Shown here: positions 15,556 to 22,647 of the stretch, one piece after another
Position numbering within the stretch: the first letter of the stretch is position 1
Layout of the letters: the number at the start of each line of letters is the position of its first letter
From: a virus
Taxonomy: Duplodnaviria; Caudoviricetes
Virus record (IMG/VR): IMGVR_UViG_3300023047_000002
Reading direction: 5' to 3' (one strand)
DNA: 64,000 nt
Notes under the pieces: generated by a model
Told to the model about the DNA's origin: nothing
Seen by the model: the letters and a program-made list of their open reading frames with translations, nothing else
Databases searched by the model: none
Program-made: the position numbers and the translations under genes

Positions 15556-15788
15556 GACAGGAGATCATTACCTTGAAAAACGACAACTCACAGAATGCAC
15601 AGGTATTCAGTTACTTGCGTTCAAGTCAGCCTTGGTACAGAGAGCAGAAGAAGTGTAGTGAAGAGTTCGACCGTCTTGTTGACCGTGTGTCACATATTAC
15701 GGACTTAATCGACCAAAAAGTAAAAGCACTCGGATATGCAACCTATGAAACGAATACCGATGGGAGAAATTCAAATGACAGACAGTAA
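15513..15788 (+). CDS. Small hypothetical protein (start probably further downstream)
   Basis: Fills the gap in the operon; GGAG at about 15560 precedes a TTG. Confidence 0.4.
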   Translation: MLSLQSAVCRLQFLRQEIITLKNDNSQNAQVFSYLRSSQPWYREQKKCSEEFDRLVDRVSHITDLIDQKVKALGYATYETNTDGRNSNDRQ

Positions 15789-16503
15789 GTCCTGCAAAAC
15801 TGATTTAGATTTTTCCGTACAAGAAGTCACTAAAGAACAGTCAACCCTTAGTACGTACCCTAAAGTCATCATAACCTGTCCATCATTTGAAGTGATCACA
15901 CCGTTAGATGGCCTGTATATTTTGAAGTACATTGAAGAAATAGGAAGGACTTGTTATCAGTCTTATCGCAACACGAAAGATGATTCATGTTATGACTTTG
16001 TTCGGATGCTCATCAGACGTGGACATGAATCTATGCTTGAGCACTTTTCCTTTTCTGTTCGATTTGTTGTTGACCGTGCAGTTCAGAACGAGCTCGTCAG
16101 GCATCGGTTGAGTTCATTAGCGGTTGAGTCATCCAGGTATGTTAATTATTCTCTTGAGAAGAACGGAGGCGTGATACGTGTAATTTGTCCACCACAAATC
16201 AAATATGGTACTGTTGAGTACGACATGTGGGTTGCGTCAATGCAAAAAAGTTCCGACACCTACTTTGAGTTATTGAAAACAACTACACCAGAAATCGCAC
16301 GAAGCGTGCTTCCACTGGCTCTGAAAACGGAGATGGTTATGTCGGCTAACTTACGACAATGGCGTAACGTGTTCAAACTACGATGTGATAATGCAGCACA
16401 TCCACAGATGCGTATGCTTATGCTACCACTGCTTAGCTATGTTAAGAAGCAGATTCCCGTCGTTTTCGATGATCTTGACTACCCGGAAGAGCTTGAACTT
16501 TAG
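15736..16503 (+). CDS. thyX: Flavin-dependent thymidylate synthase
   Basis: GRTCYQS, GHESMLEH, ELVRHRLSSLAVESSRY, ARSVLP, NLRQWR, AHPQMR. Confidence 0.95.
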   Translation: MQPMKRIPMGEIQMTDSKSCKTDLDFSVQEVTKEQSTLSTYPKVIITCPSFEVITPLDGLYILKYIEEIGRTCYQSYRNTKDDSCYDFVRMLIRRGHESMLEHFSFSVRFVVDRAVQNELVRHRLSSLAVESSRYVNYSLEKNGGVIRVICPPQIKYGTVEYDMWVASMQKSSDTYFELLKTTTPEIARSVLPLALKTEMVMSANLRQWRNVFKLRCDNAAHPQMRMLMLPLLSYVKKQIPVVFDDLDYPEELEL

Positions 16504-16535: not shown

Positions 16536-16570
16536 GAAAAAGAGCCGAAAACCCTCCACGGCTCTTTTTC
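16536..16570. terminator. Hairpin, probable terminator
   Basis: GAAAAAGAGCCG ... CGGCTCTTTTTC. Confidence 0.55.
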
Positions 16571-16609: not shown

Positions 16610-18361
16610 ATGAGTAAAGATTGCCTAAGCATTTCAGTCCTGAAAAAGAATAATTCCGTTGTCCCATTTGACGGAGATAAAATAAAATCTGCGATACGTA
16701 AATCTGCTGAACGTGTGAATGTTACTATGACCACAGAACAGGAAGACTTCGTTGTTTCTTATGTTGAAAATCTTTGTCCTGTGAATGAGCCTGTACAGGT
16801 GAAGGCGTTGCATAATTATGTCGAGTGTGCCCTTGATTCAGTGAACACAGAAGTAGCACGCTCTTATCGTGAGTATCGCAATTACAAGACGCAGTTCGTT
16901 AAGATGCTTGATCAGGTATACCGAAAGAAGCTCGAACTTTCAGACAAGCGGGACGCATCGAATGCCAATGCCGATTCTGACCTTATTACAACTCAGAAAG
17001 CAATCGCATACGCTGAATTGAATGGCGAGCTTTACAAACGGTTCTTCCTGACGGACGAGGAAAACAAAGCACAGGAAGACGGGTATATTTACATCCATGA
17101 CAAAGGCGCAAGACTAGATACCACGAATTGTTTCAGTAGGAATACACGCTTTATCACGTCTGCTGGCATCCGTTCGTTCAATGACTTTGTTGACGGTGAC
17201 ACGGTGCAGGTGTTATCGCATCGCGGTCTGTGGCGTATTGGGACAGTTCATTGCTTTGGTGAGCAGGAGACTCAGATCGTCACGTTCGTAAATGAGGACA
17301 TGTCTGTAAGGCATACCGTTGAATGCACTCCCAACCATAGGTGGATACTCTCTGACAGTAGCATTACAACTGAGCTTAAAAAGGACGATGTCTTAGTCAA
17401 ATCACCATGCGACATAGAGGGCAGGATTACACAGTTTCGTGGCGTTGTTTGGACAGTAGAAGACATTGAGAAAACAGACAGAGTTGAACCCGTATGGTGT
17501 CTTACGGTGGATACGGATCATTCATTCGTTCTTGAATCAGGCATCCCGACTGGCAACTGTTGTTTGTTTGACATGAAATCCCTTTTGAAAGGCGGTTTTC
17601 GTATGGGCAACATAAGTTATCGTGAGCCGAAGACAGCCGGAACAGCATTGTCTCTTATCGCTGATATCGCATTGAATGCAGGTGCAAGTCAGTACGGTGG
17701 TTTCACAATATCGGAGATTGACAAACTGCTTGAGCCGTATGCACATGAATCATACGACCGTTATTATGCTGAGTATGTTGAACTTACTGGTAAAAAAGAT
17801 CCGATGGGTGCAACGATTTATGCGAATAAAAAGTTACGTCAAGAACTTGAAGATGGTGCGATTGCCATTGAATGTAAATGGAATTCATGTTCTACGGCTC
17901 GCGGCGATTATCCCTTCACGTCCATCTCGTTCGGTTTGTCAAGAGACCGTTTAGGTCAAATGGTGACATCGGCTTTTTTAAAGGTTCGTAAAGAAGGTGC
18001 TGGAACCTCTGACCATATTCCCGTTCTGTTCCCCAAACTGACGTTTCTTTATGACGAGGATATGCACGGAGCAGGTAAGGAACAGGAATGGCTTTTCAAG
18101 GAAGCCGTTGAATGCACACAAAGGGCGCAGTATCCTGATTTCCTCTCGATGACAGGCGACGGTTATGCACCTTCGATGTATAAGAAATATGGCGTGTCTA
18201 TTAGCCGTATGGGATGTAGAGCCAACCTGTCCCCGTGGTATGAGATGGGTGGTCAGGAACCCGCTGATGACTTGTATGAAATTGAATATGACGATGGTAC
18301 AAAGGAGATTGTTCAAAAAGGCTTCTTGATCGGTGATCAGAAAGTTGAAGATATGGTGTAG
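16610..18361 (+). CDS. nrdD: Anaerobic ribonucleoside-triphosphate reductase, N-terminal fragment (ATP cone, mini-intein)
   Basis: ATP cone (VVPFDGDKIKSAI), NANADS, YIYIHD, N|CCL, QYGG, FPKL, YPD, finger-loop MGCR; ends after GGQEPAD plus an acidic tail; start 16610 from GAGGT RBS. Confidence 0.93.
   Translation: MSKDCLSISVLKKNNSVVPFDGDKIKSAIRKSAERVNVTMTTEQEDFVVSYVENLCPVNEPVQVKALHNYVECALDSVNTEVARSYREYRNYKTQFVKMLDQVYRKKLELSDKRDASNANADSDLITTQKAIAYAELNGELYKRFFLTDEENKAQEDGYIYIHDKGARLDTTNCFSRNTRFITSAGIRSFNDFVDGDTVQVLSHRGLWRIGTVHCFGEQETQIVTFVNEDMSVRHTVECTPNHRWILSDSSITTELKKDDVLVKSPCDIEGRITQFRGVVWTVEDIEKTDRVEPVWCLTVDTDHSFVLESGIPTGNCCLFDMKSLLKGGFRMGNISYREPKTAGTALSLIADIALNAGASQYGGFTISEIDKLLEPYAHESYDRYYAEYVELTGKKDPMGATIYANKKLRQELEDGAIAIECKWNSCSTARGDYPFTSISFGLSRDRLGQMVTSAFLKVRKEGAGTSDHIPVLFPKLTFLYDEDMHGAGKEQEWLFKEAVECTQRAQYPDFLSMTGDGYAPSMYKKYGVSISRMGCRANLSPWYEMGGQEPADDLYEIEYDDGTKEIVQKGFLIGDQKVEDMV
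17129..17557 (+). mobile_element. Mini-intein in NrdD at the NCC motif (143 aa)
   Basis: DTTN|CFSRNT..CTPNHRW..VWCLTV..SGIPTGN|CCLFD. Confidence 0.9.
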
Positions 18362-18375
18362 TCGTGTTAAACTGC

Positions 18376-18456
18376 AAAAAGGGCTAGGTCGGCCAACCGA
18401 AAAGAAGCCTTATCCACTTCCTGCCCTTTTTCTCTGTGGATAGCGTGTTGAGGATA
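18376..18456 (+). promoter_or_regulatory. Structured RNA leader of the homing endonuclease gene (three-way junction plus possible pseudoknot)
   Basis: AAAAAGGGC/GCCCTTTTT closing stem, TCGG-ccaa-CCGA and GAAG-..-CTTC hairpins; loop TATCCA complementary to TGGATA (18437-42) and partly to the SD region GGATA. Confidence 0.5.
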
Positions 18457-18463
18457 GAGCACC

Positions 18464-20263
18464 ATGAAATCAAAAAAAGTGTATCCGGAGTGGTTTCTTG
18501 CGGAACTTGCGGATGAAGAAACCAGACATCGTTTTGAGAAAGGGGATTGTAAGGTCTCTGAGTGTGTATATTTCACATGTCCAAACGGTCATCCTGCGTA
18601 TAAGCAACTTGTTAAGAATCATATTACATCGTCAGGTACACCAAGGAATAAGTGTCCTGTATGTGCAAAGTTGAATCAAACCACGTTTGTTCCACCTGAT
18701 TGGGTTGTCGAGGACTTAGCGAATGAAACGGAGCGTGAAGCTCTTCGTGGAACTGCGTGCAATTCAAAATCGAAATTTTCTTTCGTCTGTAAGCAGTGTG
18801 GAACTGTTTACGAACAAACTATATGGAATCATTCTATCGGTAAGCGGGTATGTCATGCTTGTGCAAGTAAATGTAGAGGAAAATCTTACAGTGAGACAAT
18901 AGGACAAAGAAGAAAGCCTTATCCAGAATGGTTTGTGAATGAACTGGTTAATGACAGTGACAAAGAGAGGGCATTACGTGGCGATATTACCGGTACGGAA
19001 AATGTTACGTTCAGATGCCTTGCAGGTTTAGAGCATCCGAATTATGTTCAGACTGTTAAGAGTCATATATGTATTTCTACCGGGCATCCTAAAAACGGAT
19101 GCCCCGTGTGTAGGTATATCAAGTCATCAAAAGGCATATCTGAATTTTACAAGGGTGTTAGAAAGGAGTTTCCGCCTGAGCTTTATGACGAGGTTTATAA
19201 GGATGAGGACAGGGACAAACTGCGCAACCGACAGTTGTCATATAATGAGTCCATTGATTGGGTATGTCAGTCATGTGGTCGTGTTTACAGTCAGATGATT
19301 AAAGATCACATTCGTGGGAAACGTTGTAACTACTGTGCCGGTAAGATTTCCGATGAGGAGTGCATTCTAAGGGAAATGATCACTCCATATTACAACGGTG
19401 AAATTCTCTACAACACAAGGGATGGGTTTGACGGTTATGAGGTTGACATCTACATACCGGAATACAAGATAGCTATTGAGTATAATGGTTCCTTTTGGCA
19501 CAAATCGCTTCCGAGTGGCTTTGCATCCAGAGACCGTCTGTACCACCTTCACAAATTCGAGCTGTGCCAACGCAAAGGGATAAGGCTTTTAAGCATTTTT
19601 GACGTTGACCTGTTATTTAGGAAGGAAATCTTATCGAGGTTTTTTATGGACTTGTTTGTGCCTAAAAAGGTCTTGTATGCAAGAAAGTGCCGTGTGGAAT
19701 GTATTAGCTCCTCTATGGCTAATTCTATGTATGCACAGCATCATTTACTTGGAAGCACTCCAAATTTGTCCGTGTCTTATGGGTTGTTCCATGAGGGCGA
19801 ACTCGTGTCCTGTATGTCTTTTCAAAAGGGAAGGTATAAAGTTTCAGGTCATCCAGTGTGGTGTTTGACTCGGTTTGTCACGAAGTCCGGCATCTCTGTT
19901 ATTGGCGGAGCGTCAAAACTCTTGTGTCAGTTCGAGCAGGCATATAGTCCATCGTGTATAGTGTCTTACTCTGATAATGATTTCTTTCAAGGTGGCGTAT
20001 ATGAGAAACTTGGATTCACTTGCCTCGGCGTTACAAAGACACCAAGGTATTACTGGTTTTTGCATGGTTTGGAATATAGCCGGGAACAGTGTCAGCTTAA
20101 AAATTTATCTAAAAATTACCCTGATTTGTTTGAGGAAGCAAAGAGTATACATGGGAATAAAGAAGACTTTATTATGCTTAGATTAGGTGCATTTAAAGTC
20201 TTTCGTTCGGGGCATACAAAGTGGGTTAAACACTATGAGGGAGAAATTTATGAAAAAGGTTAA
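18464..20263 (+). CDS. Free-standing homing endonuclease: four Zn-ribbon repeats, Vsr-like PD-(D/E)XK domain, C-terminal GNAT-like domain
   Basis: Four repeats starting YPEWF/PPDW/YPEWF/FPPE, each with Cys pairs; EVDIYIPEYKIAIEYNGSFWH; YARKC..GGASKLL..SYSD..YEKLGF; sits between the nrdD halves. Confidence 0.85.
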   Translation: MKSKKVYPEWFLAELADEETRHRFEKGDCKVSECVYFTCPNGHPAYKQLVKNHITSSGTPRNKCPVCAKLNQTTFVPPDWVVEDLANETEREALRGTACNSKSKFSFVCKQCGTVYEQTIWNHSIGKRVCHACASKCRGKSYSETIGQRRKPYPEWFVNELVNDSDKERALRGDITGTENVTFRCLAGLEHPNYVQTVKSHICISTGHPKNGCPVCRYIKSSKGISEFYKGVRKEFPPELYDEVYKDEDRDKLRNRQLSYNESIDWVCQSCGRVYSQMIKDHIRGKRCNYCAGKISDEECILREMITPYYNGEILYNTRDGFDGYEVDIYIPEYKIAIEYNGSFWHKSLPSGFASRDRLYHLHKFELCQRKGIRLLSIFDVDLLFRKEILSRFFMDLFVPKKVLYARKCRVECISSSMANSMYAQHHLLGSTPNLSVSYGLFHEGELVSCMSFQKGRYKVSGHPVWCLTRFVTKSGISVIGGASKLLCQFEQAYSPSCIVSYSDNDFFQGGVYEKLGFTCLGVTKTPRYYWFLHGLEYSREQCQLKNLSKNYPDLFEEAKSIHGNKEDFIMLRLGAFKVFRSGHTKWVKHYEGEIYEKG

Positions 20264-21188
20264 AGCGGTAAGAAAGTTCGCGGATAACCCTGTTTACGAA
20301 GGGAGACTTAATTGTGGCGCGATTTCACTTAATTTCCCGATGATTGTGAAAAAAGCACAGGATGAGGGCAATGATTTCTATGAGGTTTTGACATATTACC
20401 TTGACCTGTGCCGTAAAATCCATATCCGAACATTGGAATACCTTGCACATAAAAAGGCTGGCATCAATCCGTTAGGTTTCTGCGAGGGCGGTTTCTATGG
20501 CGGTCACTTCAAAGAGAATGAGGAAATCGGTCGTGAGTTTTTCAGACCTATGACGGTTTCATTCGGCATCGCCGCCTTGAATGAAGCAACGGTGATGTAC
20601 AAGGGTAAATCGTTATATGAAGATAAAGCGCAGTTTGCCGAAGAAGTTTTGCGTTTTATTAACGATTACGCAAATAAATACAAAAAAGAGGACGGAATCC
20701 TGTATGCGATTTATGGTACGCCCGGAGAGTCGATGTGCTCATTACAGGTAGAGCAGTTCCGAAAGAAGTATGGCATGATTAAGGGAGTGTCAGACCGTAA
20801 GTATATGTCCAATTCTTTCCATGTTCATGTTTCTGAGGATATCACGCCTGTGGATAAGATGGATACAGAGTACAAATGCTTCCATTTGTGCAACGGTGGT
20901 AACATCATCTACAACAGATTCGGATCTGATTATAACACAAAAGCCTACGTGACGCTTATTCGGGAAGCAATGAAACGTGGGTATTATTACGGGTGCAACA
21001 TCAGCAAGAATTACTGCTGTACATGTGGAGCAGAGTTTTTGGATGAAGACAAGTGCCCGTCCTGTGGAAGTGATGATTTGGTTCGTATTTCAAGGGTGTG
21101 TGGATACCTTGGCCTTGAACGTGTGCACGGCGACACCCGAATGAACGGAGGCAAACGTGCTGAAATAGACGACAGAAAGTGCATGTGA
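20250..21188 (+). CDS. nrdD: Anaerobic ribonucleoside-triphosphate reductase, C-terminal fragment
   Basis: EGRLNCGAISLN, YGTPGES, SNSFH, NGGNI, Zn CxxC..CPSCG, glycyl-radical RVCGYLG; own GAGGGAG RBS overlapping the endonuclease stop. Confidence 0.93.
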   Translation: MKKVKAVRKFADNPVYEGRLNCGAISLNFPMIVKKAQDEGNDFYEVLTYYLDLCRKIHIRTLEYLAHKKAGINPLGFCEGGFYGGHFKENEEIGREFFRPMTVSFGIAALNEATVMYKGKSLYEDKAQFAEEVLRFINDYANKYKKEDGILYAIYGTPGESMCSLQVEQFRKKYGMIKGVSDRKYMSNSFHVHVSEDITPVDKMDTEYKCFHLCNGGNIIYNRFGSDYNTKAYVTLIREAMKRGYYYGCNISKNYCCTCGAEFLDEDKCPSCGSDDLVRISRVCGYLGLERVHGDTRMNGGKRAEIDDRKCM

Positions 21189-21189
21189 G

Positions 21190-21229
21190 TGGTGCTGGTA
21201 TCCGAAATCTAACCTTTATGTGGTATAAG
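21190..21229 (+). promoter_or_regulatory. TGGTGCT-box promoter
   Basis: TGGTGCT-N27-TATAAG with TGTGG extension, followed by a perfect 12-bp hairpin. Confidence 0.75.
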
Positions 21230-21295
21230 AACCAGTGAGAAGCATAGTTGCTTCTCACTGGGTAATAAGCAGATTTGTGTAATGGAGAATTGGTT

Positions 21296-22105
21296 ATGTT
21301 AATCAAACATCATACGAACGAAGTAAAATCGTGGCAGGTAAAGCAACTTAAGGATGCTGTGCAAGGTAAAAGTTCTCTTGTTCGGTCGTGGGGTATTATG
21401 ACTTCCGAGAACCCTATGGGCAAATCCATGAAACGTGCCGTCAACAGAAATCTTGTCATTCAATGTAAACAGGCTTTGAAGCAGCGTGGACTGGAATACA
21501 TTCCTGTCAAGGGACGATATGGCGGAGATGAGAACTCATTGTTTGTCATTAACCCTCTTCTCAAGGACATGATGGAACTATCCAGGCAGTTCGACCAAGA
21601 GTCCTTCATCTTTGTCACCTGTGATGACGGCGGATGCGACATGGGATACTATGAAAAGGGGCAGGGCGATTCACCGTACATCTTGAAACATTCACGTAAC
21701 CAGGTGGTCGGAATGGACGATGCCGAGGACTTCTTTACGTCTGTCAAGGCACGCTCAAAACGAGCCTTCAAGTTTCAGATTCCTTTCTTTGATGGTCAGG
21801 ACGACACGGCTATATCCTCAGAAAGCATCGTCCGTACATTGGAGCATTATGTCATAGAACGTTATGGTTATCAGGGCATTGTGTCGCTGTCTGAACGTAT
21901 CAACGAGACCTTCTCAAGGAATATCACGGAACGTCATAGGCATTCTTTACGTTCAATGATTTACGAAACACGTAGTGCACGGGTACGCCGTCTTGAGTCT
22001 TGTATCAGGTCTCTTGAGTCCGTTGTTGTTTCTCAGGGAGCATCACGTGAGATTGAACGTTCCATACAAGTTATTCGAGAGGAACTTGAAAGTATTCGCC
22101 GTTAA
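21296..22105 (+). CDS. DUF3293-like hypothetical protein with MLIK N-terminus
   Basis: WGIMTSENPMG..N..L..G.Y..ENSLFV..F.QES pattern; GGAG RBS. Confidence 0.55.
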   Translation: MLIKHHTNEVKSWQVKQLKDAVQGKSSLVRSWGIMTSENPMGKSMKRAVNRNLVIQCKQALKQRGLEYIPVKGRYGGDENSLFVINPLLKDMMELSRQFDQESFIFVTCDDGGCDMGYYEKGQGDSPYILKHSRNQVVGMDDAEDFFTSVKARSKRAFKFQIPFFDGQDDTAISSESIVRTLEHYVIERYGYQGIVSLSERINETFSRNITERHRHSLRSMIYETRSARVRRLESCIRSLESVVVSQGASREIERSIQVIREELESIRR

Positions 22106-22131: not shown

Positions 22132-22647
22132 ATGAATTACTCAGGCTTAAAGTATTGTGACATGGTGAATGGCGAAGGTCTTAGAACCGTCCTGTTTGTA
22201 AGTGGGTGTTCCCACAAATGCCCTTCATGTCACAACCCTCAGACACATGACCCTTGTTACGGTCAGCCGTTTTCCCTAGGAACCATGCAGGATATTATGG
22301 ATTCTCTTCGTATGGAGTTTTGCTCAGGACTGACCTTGTCTGGCGGTGACCCATTATATCCTGACAATCGTGAAGAGGTGATGCATATCGTTGAAACTGT
22401 CAAAGGTGAGTTCGGAGATGAAAAGACGATATGGCTTTACACAGGTTATACGTATGGTGAACTTAAAAAGCAGATTGAGGACGGAGATGTAATGCTTAGT
22501 CGTATTCTTTATTGTGTGGATGTGTTGGTTGACGGCCCGTTCATTCTGTCAAGAAAACGACAAGGTCTTCTTTGGAGAGGTTCTGATAATCAATGTCTGC
22601 TTCGCCTTAAGTACGGAGAAGTTGTTTCGGAAGTAGTTGAGTCATGA
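22132..22647 (+). CDS. nrdG: Anaerobic RNR activating enzyme (radical SAM)
   Basis: NGEGLRTVLFVSGCSHKCPSCHN, SGGDP, WLYTGY, DVLVDGPF, RGSDNQ. Confidence 0.97.
   Translation: MNYSGLKYCDMVNGEGLRTVLFVSGCSHKCPSCHNPQTHDPCYGQPFSLGTMQDIMDSLRMEFCSGLTLSGGDPLYPDNREEVMHIVETVKGEFGDEKTIWLYTGYTYGELKKQIEDGDVMLSRILYCVDVLVDGPFILSRKRQGLLWRGSDNQCLLRLKYGEVVSEVVES

What the first reader, a model, noticed from the sequence alone, without database searches (positions are those of the whole stretch)
18180..20330. NrdD fractured by a homing endonuclease, with charge-complementary tails instead of an intron or split intein
Seen: the N-half ends MGCRANLSPWYEMGGQEPAD followed by the tail DLYEIEYDDGTKEIVQKGFLIGDQKVEDMV* (strongly acidic). 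The C-half has its own RBS and starts MKKVKAVRKFAD (basic) before NPVYEGRLNCG. Only about 100 nt of non-coding DNA lies at the 5' junction and none at the 3' junction, so there is no room for a group I intron core. There is no Cys1 after the break and no HN/GN-nucleophile before the resumed sequence. Established: these segments are contiguous in intact NrdDs, just after the catalytic finger loop. Fractured genes usually rejoin by split inteins, while Aeh1 nrdA split by mobE reassembles without splicing. Inference: YEIEYDDG and MKKVKAVRK resemble beta-strands of acidic IntN and basic IntC halves. They may be a minimal non-splicing docking tag that holds the two halves of a glycyl-radical enzyme together.
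Basis: partly seen in the sequence, partly recalled or inferred. Interest (0 to 1): 0.8.

Follow-up and report, generated by a model that had tools for sequence, protein, structure and literature searches.

The report
Endonuclease-split phage NrdD with charged tails
A large cattle-gut phage encodes its anaerobic ribonucleotide reductase as two separate proteins because a mobile endonuclease gene sits in the middle, and the oppositely charged extra peptides at the break probably help the halves reassemble, as already shown for another phage reductase.

Summary
NrdD (class III RNR) is encoded as two ORFs, 16610-18361 and 20250-21188. Between them lie a 102-nt spacer and a 599-aa free-standing ORF (zinc fingers, Vsr-like nuclease, Mom-like GNAT domain).

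- **No splicing signals.** Rfam finds no group I or II intron, and no intein blocks flank the break.
- **Extra residues.** Against uninterrupted alleles 94-97% identical, the N-half has about 30 extra acidic residues (net -6). The C-half has about 10-12 extra basic residues (net +3.5).
- **Tail conservation.** Six other split alleles keep the tail: 30-31 aa, one in-frame indel, charge retained.
- **Mobility.** Two alleles carry an identical tail on exteins only 72-81% identical. Tail and endonuclease therefore move together.
- **Fused allele.** One full-length allele (P0250) has tail and head joined as a 33-36-aa loop. AlphaFold folds it as hairpin, helix, strand, and the break falls in the least confident linker.

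Most likely reading: two chains, no splicing, reassembly helped by the two peptides. None of this was tested biochemically.

The idea is not new. In phage Aeh1, oppositely charged tails from the mobE insertion are essential for split NrdA (PMC3045599). A Vsr-like endonuclease also splits an SbcD gene, leaving 25- and 9-aa tails (PMC2677866). I class this as a new member of a known kind.

This scan also noted the same stretch in an overlapping window (e1-5665170).

The parts
16610..18361 (+). nrdD N-half: ATP-cone, N-terminal part of the barrel and the catalytic Cys loop. Also contains a mini-intein and the acidic tail.
   Evidence: ORF and translation. Pfam ATP-cone and NRDD profile 53-270. 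Start chosen by the GAGG five bases upstream of ATG 16610.
17129..17557 (+). 143-aa mini-intein inserted in the conserved N|CCLFD motif. It starts with Cys, ends in GN, and the +1 residue is Cys.
   Evidence: Translation. Weak Pfam Intein_splicing hit at residues 246-322. Absent from P0122, P0123 and P0125 and from the intact homologues in L001 and L004.
18215..18217 (+). Codon of the catalytic Cys in the MGC finger-loop motif. It is also an intein insertion site in sister alleles.
   Evidence: Alignment with intact NrdDs. A 526-nt extra insert lies exactly here in the run X2 contig. Inteins ending in SHN before CRAN occur in P0121-P0124.
18269..18361 (+). Acidic C-terminal tail of the N-half (30 codons plus TAG). 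It is absent from the closest uninterrupted alleles.
   Evidence: Net charge -6.2. 30-31 aa in all seven split alleles. GC 36.6% against 45.5% in the adjoining nrdD.
18377..18445 (+). Structured-RNA match (Rfam int-alpA, RF02996) in the 102-nt spacer, ending 18 nt before the endonuclease start codon. Function unknown.
   Evidence: 40.4 bits against a gathering score of 35.8. It is the only Rfam hit in the whole window. The thermodynamic fold is not exceptional, z = -0.17. The motif is not found beside endonuclease paralogues.
18464..20263 (+). Free-standing putative homing endonuclease, 599 aa: four DUF4379 treble-clef zinc fingers, a Vsr/MTES_1575-like PD-(D/E)XK nuclease and a Mom-like GNAT domain.
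   Evidence: Pfam. 290 relatives, with invariant E326, D328, E339 and H346. AlphaFold mean pLDDT 82.5. Foldseek match to phage Mu Mom 8bv8, probability 1.00.
20237..20243 (+). Shine-Dalgarno GAGGGAG for the C-half, lying inside the 3' end of the endonuclease ORF.
   Evidence: Sequence.
20250..20285 (+). Basic N-terminal head of the C-half (12 codons, of which about 10 are extra relative to intact alleles).
   Evidence: Net charge +3.5. 11/12 identical in P0001 and 8/12 in P0003.
20250..21188 (+). nrdD C-half: rest of the barrel, C-terminal zinc ribbon and glycyl-radical loop.
   Evidence: Pfam NRDD profile 268-560 and Gly_radical. A model of the homologous P0004 matches solved NrdD structures.
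22132..22647 (+). ORF read here, by its sequence alone, as nrdG, the activating enzyme that a working NrdD needs. No family search was run on it.
   Evidence: Intact 171-aa ORF. By eye its N-terminal region carries the Cys cluster typical of radical-SAM activases. The intact nrdD of L004 is likewise followed at once by an ORF of about this size. Neither ORF was searched or aligned, so the name is an inference.

Best explanation
A free-standing, mobile endonuclease gene has landed in nrdD. The site is a surface loop that follows the catalytic Cys finger loop and precedes the next barrel strand.

The gene is now expressed as two polypeptides. Nothing is spliced at the RNA or protein level. The C-half is translated from its own ribosome-binding site, which overlaps the end of the endonuclease ORF.

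The halves reassemble non-covalently into the ten-stranded glycyl-radical barrel. The Cys loop comes from one chain and the Gly loop from the other. Reassembly is helped by the extra peptides at the break. The acidic tail forms a beta-hairpin plus a short helix. The basic head forms a strand. Together they make a small folded unit in trans.

Tail, spacer, endonuclease and head behave as one mobile unit that spreads between nrdD alleles by homing with co-conversion.

Shown: the split, the absence of splicing signatures, the tails' distribution and conservation, and their mobility. Inferred: the two-chain enzyme, pairing of tail with head, and any need for them.
For: **Split and contiguity.**

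**No splicing signals.** No intron family appears at E<=10 in 17800-20700 or at gathering score in the whole window. No intein domain lies at the break.

**Tails absent from close intact alleles.** P0128 is 96.6% identical in the N core and 94% in the C part. P0127 and P0002 lack the tails too.

**Tails kept in split alleles.**
- All six other split N-halves end in the tail. It is 30-31 aa, differs by one in-frame codion-length indel (one codon), shows mostly conservative changes, and keeps a net charge of -5 to -6.
- The split C-halves P0001 and P0003 (69% identical overall) keep the basic head.

**Mobility.**
- P0122 and P0123 have tails 30/30 identical to the window, yet their extein cores are only 72% and 81% identical. 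Identity rises towards the junction.
- Split and intact alleles interleave on the extein tree.

**Adjacency and fold.**
- In P0004/P0250, tail residues 1-24 run straight into the head residues in one ORF.
- AlphaFold gives strands 16-21 and 26-30, helix 31-36 and strand 41-48. Mean pLDDT for the 10-residue blocks 11-20, 21-30, 31-40 and 41-50 is 89, 86, 69 and 78. The break corresponds to residues 38|39.

**Persistence.** The split form occurs in four animal-gut runs from three studies.

**Precedent.** Aeh1 NrdA tails are essential and oppositely charged (PMC3045599). Hairpins upstream of the endonuclease and 6-69 bp overlaps downstream are typical of fractured genes (PMC2677866).
Against: - No RNA, protein or activity data exist. 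No RNA run holding the locus was listed.
- Pairing of tail with head in trans was not modelled.
- The P0250 allele allows the simpler view that the tails are just the two sides of an older loop.
- In Aeh1 the tails were not needed for the two fragments to associate. They were needed only for dimerisation of heterodimers, so 'docking of the halves' may be the wrong step.
- The tail diverges faster than the core in one pair: P0124 has 22/30 identical in the tail against 93% in the core.
- The spacer RNA ends in a stem plus a U-run. If it terminates transcription, expression of the C-half would need another promoter.
- The rest of the phage genome could not be searched for another RNR.
Confidence: 0.6

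Rival explanations
1. The tails are not an evolved or cassette-borne docking device. They are the two sides of a lineage-specific structured loop, as in P0250, that existed before the endonuclease landed in its linker. The halves are held together by the large barrel interface. The loop travels with the endonuclease only through co-conversion.
For: - P0004/P0250 encode the same residues as one contiguous 33-36-aa loop in a complete 1057-aa NrdD.
- This site tolerates insertions in other unsplit NrdDs. The spacing from the Cys motif to the GRxNxG motif is usually 18 residues but is 24, 32, 58, 65 and 69 in P0315, P0287, P0306, P0303 and P0304.
- Relatives of the endonuclease in other phages are intergenic and carry no such tails.
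- In Aeh1 the fragments associate without their tails.
Against: - Only one fused allele was found, against seven split ones.
- On the extein tree it sits between two split clades, so it could equally be a healed deletion of the endonuclease.
- The last six or seven tail residues have no counterpart in the fused loop, yet they are conserved in pattern among split alleles.
- This view does not exclude a stabilising role for the cut mini-domain.
Confidence: 0.25
2. The split gene is a dead or dying nrdD. The endonuclease insertion inactivated it, and the phage relies on the host's RNR or another of its own.
For: No functional data exist. The remainder of the roughly 240-kb genome could not be searched. 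Homing can spread an insertion faster than selection removes it.
Against: - Both halves are intact ORFs with all catalytic motifs in seven N-halves and three C-halves that differ by up to 35%.
- The endonuclease orthologues differ by about 40%, so the split state is old.
- An intact ORF that looks like the activase gene nrdG lies about 1 kb downstream (read by eye, not searched).
- The inteins in the same gene keep their splicing termini.
Confidence: 0.07
3. A cryptic ribozyme or a degenerate split intein rejoins the halves, through RNA splicing or protein trans-splicing.
For: - nrdD of T4 carries a group I intron (from my own knowledge).
- Small group I introns abound in gut jumbo phages (PMC12880540).
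- The tail starts with a hairpin pattern also seen at intein N-termini.
- Crona et al. raised intein decay as a possible origin for the Aeh1 tails.
Against: - No intron model matches even at E<=10.
- Only about 20 nt follow the endonuclease stop before conserved nrdD sequence resumes.
- Tail and head evolve as protein (in-frame indel, conservative changes), and both are translated inside the P0250 protein.
- Tail plus head total about 40 aa, far below any intein. They lack Cys1, the block B TxxH motif and the terminal HN plus nucleophile.
Confidence: 0.04

Closest known systems
Phage Aeh1 nrdA-a / mobE / nrdA-b (class Ia RNR; Friedrich 2007; Crona et al. 2011, PMC3045599)
   Same: - An RNR catalytic subunit is split inside the ten-stranded barrel by a free-standing homing endonuclease.
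- Active-site residues are divided between two chains, and there is no splicing.
- The endonuclease ORF overlaps the downstream fragment, and an RNA structure lies upstream of the endonuclease.
- The C- and N-terminal tails are absent from intact homologues, AT-richer than their flanks and oppositely charged.
   Different: - The RNR class differs: here it is class III, a glycyl-radical enzyme with the Cys loop and Gly loop on different chains.
- The endonuclease family differs: Vsr-like nuclease with zinc fingers and a Mom-like domain, against HNH.
- The charge polarity is reversed: acidic upstream and basic downstream.
- Here there are many natural alleles (split, empty and fused), where Aeh1 is a single genome.
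- The role of the tails is experimentally proven only for Aeh1.
Intein-less SbcD-like fractured gene with a Vsr-like endonuclease (Dassa et al. 2009, PMC2677866)
   Same: A Vsr-like free-standing endonuclease lies between the two halves with no split intein. There are 25 extra C-terminal and 9 extra N-terminal residues at the break, against about 30 and 10 here. The endonuclease overlaps the downstream ORF.
   Different: The host gene differs. Only a single metagenomic locus was described. No analysis of tail conservation, charge or structure was reported. Its tail sequences could not be compared, because the supplement is not held.
Fractured genes with split inteins (gp41-1, NrdJ-1, IMPDH-1 and others; PMC2677866)
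   Same: The genomic layout is the same: N-part, hairpin, free-standing endonuclease, overlapping C-part. Those split inteins have an acidic IntN and a basic IntC, which matches the charge polarity seen here.
   Different: The intein halves there are about 75-105 aa and 35-45 aa and carry the splicing blocks. Here the pieces are 30 and 12 aa with none of them.
T4 nrdD (sunY) group I intron with I-TevII, and intron- or endonuclease-fragmented nrdD of gut Jug phages (PMC12880540)
   Same: nrdD is a favoured target of mobile elements. The Jug phage paper reports one nrdD junction with no RNA-splicing evidence.
   Different: No ribozyme core is detectable here. The flanking extra codons are translated and conserved as protein.

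Membership tests
Endonuclease-fractured gene reassembled through insertion-derived tails (Aeh1 NrdA type) | The host gene is cut into two ORFs by a free-standing endonuclease gene, with the pieces contiguous in intact homologues. | tested here: met
Endonuclease-fractured gene reassembled through insertion-derived tails (Aeh1 NrdA type) | The tails at the break are absent from uninterrupted homologues. | tested here: met
   Absent from P0127, P0128, P0002, L001, L002 and L004. One exception: P0250 carries them fused as a loop.
Endonuclease-fractured gene reassembled through insertion-derived tails (Aeh1 NrdA type) | The two tails carry opposite charges. | tested here: met
   Net -6.2 against +3.5. 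The sign is kept in the other alleles.
Endonuclease-fractured gene reassembled through insertion-derived tails (Aeh1 NrdA type) | There is no RNA or protein splicing, and two stable polypeptides result. | tested here: inconclusive
   In silico there are no intron or intein signatures. No RNA run was available, and there are no protein data.
Endonuclease-fractured gene reassembled through insertion-derived tails (Aeh1 NrdA type) | The tails are required for assembly or activity. | not testable with these tools
   Support is indirect only: conservation and the fold of the fused allele.
Split-intein fractured gene | IntN has a Cys/Ser/Ala1 start and blocks A and B. IntC ends in HN followed by a nucleophile. 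| tested here: not met
   The tail starts with Asp-Leu, and the head is followed by Asn-Pro. The pieces are 30 and 12 aa. There is no Pfam intein hit at the break.
Group I or II intron carrying an endonuclease ORF | A ribozyme core is detectable by covariance models. | tested here: not met
   No hit at E<=10 in 17800-20700 and none at gathering score in the whole window.
Class III ribonucleotide reductase NrdD | NRDD domain, ATP-cone, Cys finger loop, C-terminal zinc ribbon and glycyl-radical motif. | tested here: met
   Pfam: 1.7e-41 for the N-half and 2.8e-57 for the C-half, plus Gly_radical. Structural match to 8p23, 1hk8 and 9d3x.
Vsr-like (PD-(D/E)XK) homing endonucleases | A Vsr-type catalytic core (Asp, the FWH His and others). 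| tested here: inconclusive
   The window protein has only a weak Vsr hit, E=0.012. Relatives hit MTES_1575 at 2.4e-7, below Pfam's cut-off. E326, D328, E339 and H346 are invariant. Foldseek on the whole model returned only the GNAT domain.
Vsr-like (PD-(D/E)XK) homing endonucleases | Behaves as a mobile element: present or absent between close alleles, and multicopy. | tested here: met
   Alleles with and without the endonuclease are 97% identical. At least four paralogues lie in one 252-kb phage contig. Cleavage was not tested.
int-alpA RNA (RF02996) | Score above Rfam's gathering threshold. | tested here: met
   40.4 bits against 35.8.
int-alpA RNA (RF02996) | The usual genomic setting beside integrase and alpA genes. 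| tested here: not met
   Here it lies between the nrdD N-half and an endonuclease. There are no covariation data, and the fold z-score is -0.17.

The most novel reading that the evidence does not exclude
The endonuclease cassette carries its own antidote. The acidic hairpin tail and the basic strand are part of the mobile unit and are copied into each newly invaded nrdD allele together with the nuclease. They form a self-contained trans beta mini-domain that makes fragmentation of a glycyl-radical enzyme harmless. The same two peptides can later be fused into a harmless loop when the endonuclease is lost, as in P0250. This would be a portable, natural, non-splicing protein-complementation tag with its split, empty and healed states all present in nature.
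Probability: 0.3. Interest if true: 0.6.

Novelty: new member of a known kind. Interest (0 to 1): 0.45.

Why it matters
It would be the second RNR, and the first glycyl-radical enzyme, shown to work as two chains after invasion by an endonuclease. Here the radical-storing Gly loop and the thiyl-forming Cys loop would sit on different polypeptides.

Aeh1 is a single genome. This locus comes with a natural allelic series: empty site, split with two tail types, and fused loop. That series makes the predicted general rule of insertion-derived assembly tails directly testable.

The two short peptides could also serve as a small non-covalent complementation tag.

For annotation, the locus shows that the two nrdD ORFs are not decay products. 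It also shows that the catalytic centre of nrdD in these gut phages is a hot spot carrying up to three inteins plus this insertion.

Tried and rejected
- **Tools unavailable.** DNA of the other split, empty and fused alleles could therefore not be fetched, and no dN/dS or exact insertion boundaries could be computed. No whole genome is held for the window.
- **RNA evidence.** No RNA holder was listed.
- **DNA joints.** Contigs from four DNA runs showed no form lacking the endonuclease.
- **Searches for relatives.**
  - A viral-contig scan with the single endonuclease protein found nothing.
  - A profile scan found only 25-45% identical (best segment) relatives; the full-length ones whose flanks I inspected (38-42% identical) are intergenic.
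  - A degenerate DNA pattern for the start of the tail found nothing in viral contigs. In JGI metagenomes it found two chance hits, one of them a large repeat protein.
- **Direct repeat.** I considered a short direct repeat flanking the cassette, an 8-mer shared by the end of the tail and the head. It is not significant: 39% of shuffles score as well.
- **int-alpA as a family signal.** It does not occur beside 15 paralogous loci, and its fold energy is ordinary.
- **TGGTGCT motif.** It is enriched in the window, 18 copies against 6 expected. No + strand copy lies between 13476 and 21190. This is compatible with one transcript but proves nothing.
- **Structure jobs.** The second AlphaFold job went to the endonuclease. 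The full-length fused allele P0250 was found afterwards and could not be folded.
Full report
**1. What is there**

- thyX lies at 15736-16503 and is followed by a terminator-like hairpin.
- A long ORF then starts with an ATP-cone and the N-terminal 270 profile positions of the Pfam NRDD domain. Its probable start is ATG 16610, which has a GAGG five bases upstream.
- This ORF contains a 143-aa mini-intein (17129-17557) in the conserved NCCLFD motif.
- It carries the catalytic Cys of the MGC finger loop at 18215-18217.
- It ends at TAG 18359-18361, after 30 residues that have no counterpart in ordinary NrdDs.
- A 102-nt spacer follows. Next comes a 599-aa ORF (18464-20263).
- Overlapping that ORF by 14 nt and preceded by GAGGGAG, a 312-aa ORF starts at 20250 and ends at 21188. 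It covers NRDD profile positions 268-560, with the zinc ribbon and the glycyl-radical loop.
- An intact 171-aa ORF lies at 22132-22647. By its sequence alone I read it as nrdG, the activase gene; I ran no family search on it.

**2. The break compared with uninterrupted genes**

Ordinary relatives run from the Cys loop through PAD, four residues and PV(F/Y)xGR into the next barrel strand.

Very close uninterrupted alleles exist. P0128 is 96.6% identical to the window in the N-terminal extein core and 94% in the C part. P0127 (92% and 94%) and P0002 (90%) are also close. All three have the plain four-residue connection.

Against them the window has about 29-30 extra residues on the upstream chain and about 10 on the downstream chain. 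The tail has pI 4.05 and net charge -6.2. The head has pI 10.46 and net charge +3.5. Both are AT-richer than the flanking nrdD: 37-39% GC against 44-46%. The same was noted for the Aeh1 tails.

**3. No sign of splicing**

A permissive covariance-model search of 17800-20700 (E<=10) and a gathering-threshold search of the whole 64 kb found no group I or II intron. The only match is int-alpA RNA (RF02996) at 18377-18445, with 40.4 bits against a threshold of 35.8.

Only about 20 nt separate the endonuclease stop from conserved nrdD sequence. Pfam sees an intein only at the known mini-intein, not at the break. The tail begins with Asp-Leu. The head is followed by Asn-Pro. Together they make about 40 residues, which is too few for any intein.

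**4. The inserted gene**

It has DUF4379 treble-clef zinc fingers and a weak Vsr match over the segment that carries the invariant E326, D328, E339 and H346. A weak Mom-family match covers the C-terminal 200 residues. Relatives reach Pfam's cut-off for Mom and come near it for the MTES_1575 restriction-endonuclease fold.

An AlphaFold model (mean pLDDT 82.5) matches phage Mu Mom (8bv8, probability 1.00) and other GNAT proteins. The nuclease domain was not recovered by the whole-model search.

The family has 290 members at E<=1e-5. In IMG/VR jumbo phages its 38-42% identical full-length relatives are free-standing and intergenic. At least four copies lie in one 252-kb contig, and none carries tails like those here.

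The protein therefore behaves like a free-standing homing endonuclease of the Vsr-like kind described by Dassa et al.. Cleavage is untested.

**5. Other alleles**

A search of 5.8 billion proteins with the last 56 residues of the N-half found six more split N-halves (P0121-P0126). They carry zero, one or two inteins, and all end in the same tail.

- The tail is 30 aa in four of them and 31 aa in two, a difference of one in-frame codon.
- The second tail type shares 17 identities and 25-26 positives.
- Its changes are mostly conservative, and the net charge stays at -5 to -6.
- Split C-halves P0001 (95% identical) and P0003 (69%) keep the basic head, 11/12 and 8/12 identical.
- Orthologues of the endonuclease are 56-62% identical.

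The split arrangement is therefore old, and the extra peptides evolve as protein.

**6. The tail travels with the endonuclease**

P0122 and P0123 have tails identical to the window at 30 of 30 positions. Their extein cores are only 72% and 81% identical, and identity rises to 81% and 88% in the last 100 residues before the junction. That is the pattern expected from homing with co-conversion.

On a maximum-likelihood tree of extein cores, split and uninterrupted alleles interleave. The window's nearest neighbour is the uninterrupted P0128.

Contigs from four animal-gut runs of three studies carry the split form at 95-99% identity, and none skips the insert.

**7. A fused allele**

P0004 is a 5'-truncated JGI gene call. 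P0250 is a complete 1057-aa NrdD with two inteins, identical to P0004 over 350 residues. Both read straight through: after PAE come residues homologous to tail positions 1-24, and then residues homologous to the head, all in one ORF. Shuffle tests give a score of 61 against 0 +/- 7.5 for the tail part and p = 0.0035 for the head part.

AlphaFold folds this loop as a beta-hairpin (16-21, 26-30), a short helix (31-36) and a strand (41-48). Mean pLDDT for the 10-residue blocks 11-20, 21-30, 31-40 and 41-50 is 89, 86, 69 and 78. The place where the split alleles are cut (38|39) falls in the least confident stretch.

The site tolerates other insertions. The distance from the Cys motif to GRxNxG is 18 residues in most NrdDs, but 24 to 69 in five others.

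On the tree, P0250 sits between the two split clades. I cannot tell whether it is the ancestral loop or a healed deletion of the endonuclease.

**8. Mechanism**

The best reading is a two-chain NrdD. The N-half and C-half are translated separately and rebuild the barrel non-covalently. The acidic hairpin tail and the basic head strand complete a small folded unit across the cut.

Steps shown:
- the split
- the absence of splicing signatures
- the distribution, conservation and mobility of the tails
- a folded prediction for the fused form

Steps inferred:
- expression of both chains
- their association
- contact between tail and head
- any requirement for them

I put 0.6 on this reading. I put 0.25 on the view that the peptides are merely a pre-existing loop cut in two, with no special role. 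I put 0.07 on a dead gene and 0.04 on cryptic splicing.

**9. What is known**

The idea is not new. Crona et al. (PMC3045599) showed the following for the Aeh1 class Ia reductase, which is split by mobE:
- The unique tails arose with the insertion.
- They have opposite charges, pI 10.4 and 3.8.
- Deleting them cuts activity about 2000-fold.
- They act in dimerisation rather than in association of the two fragments.

Those authors predicted similar tails on other fractured genes.

Dassa et al. (PMC2677866) described an SbcD-like gene fractured by a Vsr-like endonuclease without an intein. It has 25 and 9 extra residues at the break, upstream hairpins and downstream overlaps.

Fragmentation of nrdD in gut jumbo phages has also been reported, including one junction without splicing evidence (PMC12880540).

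New here:
- the enzyme class
- the endonuclease architecture
- the reversed charge polarity
- the natural series of empty, split and fused alleles

I found no paper describing this nrdD split.

**10. Limits**

- Nucleotide-level selection tests could not be done. Exact boundaries, transcripts and a possible second RNR could not be examined.
- Structure tools return no coordinates and no multimers.

Noticed in passing
window 17129-17557: A 143-aa endonuclease-free mini-intein lies in the NCCLFD motif of the nrdD N-half. It starts with Cys and ends in GN. It is present in the window, P0121, P0124 and P0250, and absent from P0122, P0123 and P0125.
   Followed up: partly
window 18215 and 20722-20742 (variants in run X2/X4 contigs; P0121-P0126, P0002, P0005): Sister alleles carry more inserts. 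One is a 526-nt to over 1-kb intein exactly at the catalytic Cys. One version starts with Ala and holds LAGLIDADG-like sequence. Another is a roughly 961-nt insert ending VHN before Cys-Ser in the C-half. This nrdD lineage has up to three intein sites plus the endonuclease split.
   Followed up: partly
window 18377-18445: This is the only Rfam match in the 64-kb window: int-alpA RNA, 40.4 bits, just upstream of the endonuclease start. It lies far from its usual integrase/alpA setting. It ends in a stem followed by a U-run. Its fold energy is ordinary, and it is absent beside endonuclease paralogues.
   Followed up: partly
window 19670-20260 (C-terminal third of the 599-aa ORF): The putative homing endonuclease ends in a GNAT domain that matches phage Mu Mom, the DNA adenine carbamoylmethylating enzyme (8bv8). 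This nuclease-plus-Mom-like fusion is conserved across hundreds of phage proteins. What the domain does in an endonuclease is unexplained.
   Followed up: partly
L027, L035, L061 (IMGVR_UViG_3300021254_000021, 252 kb): One jumbo-phage contig holds at least four paralogues of this endonuclease, all intergenic. Two sit next to baseplate or tail genes. Its own nrdD (L004) is uninterrupted.
   Followed up: no
P0303, P0304, P0306, P0287, P0315: Other unsplit NrdD lineages carry unrelated insertions at the same loop between the Cys finger and the next barrel strand: the spacing there is 24 to 69 residues against the usual 18. The site is a general insertion hot spot.
   Followed up: no
window 21190-21261 and 21275-22105: A TGGTGCT motif and a perfect 13-bp hairpin follow the nrdD C-half. 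A 276-aa ORF of unknown function separates it from the putative nrdG. TGGTGCT is enriched in the window, 18 copies against 6 expected.
   Followed up: partly
window 16537-16568: A terminator-like hairpin with a U-run lies between thyX and the nrdD start. The nrdD operon may therefore need its own promoter or read-through.
   Followed up: no
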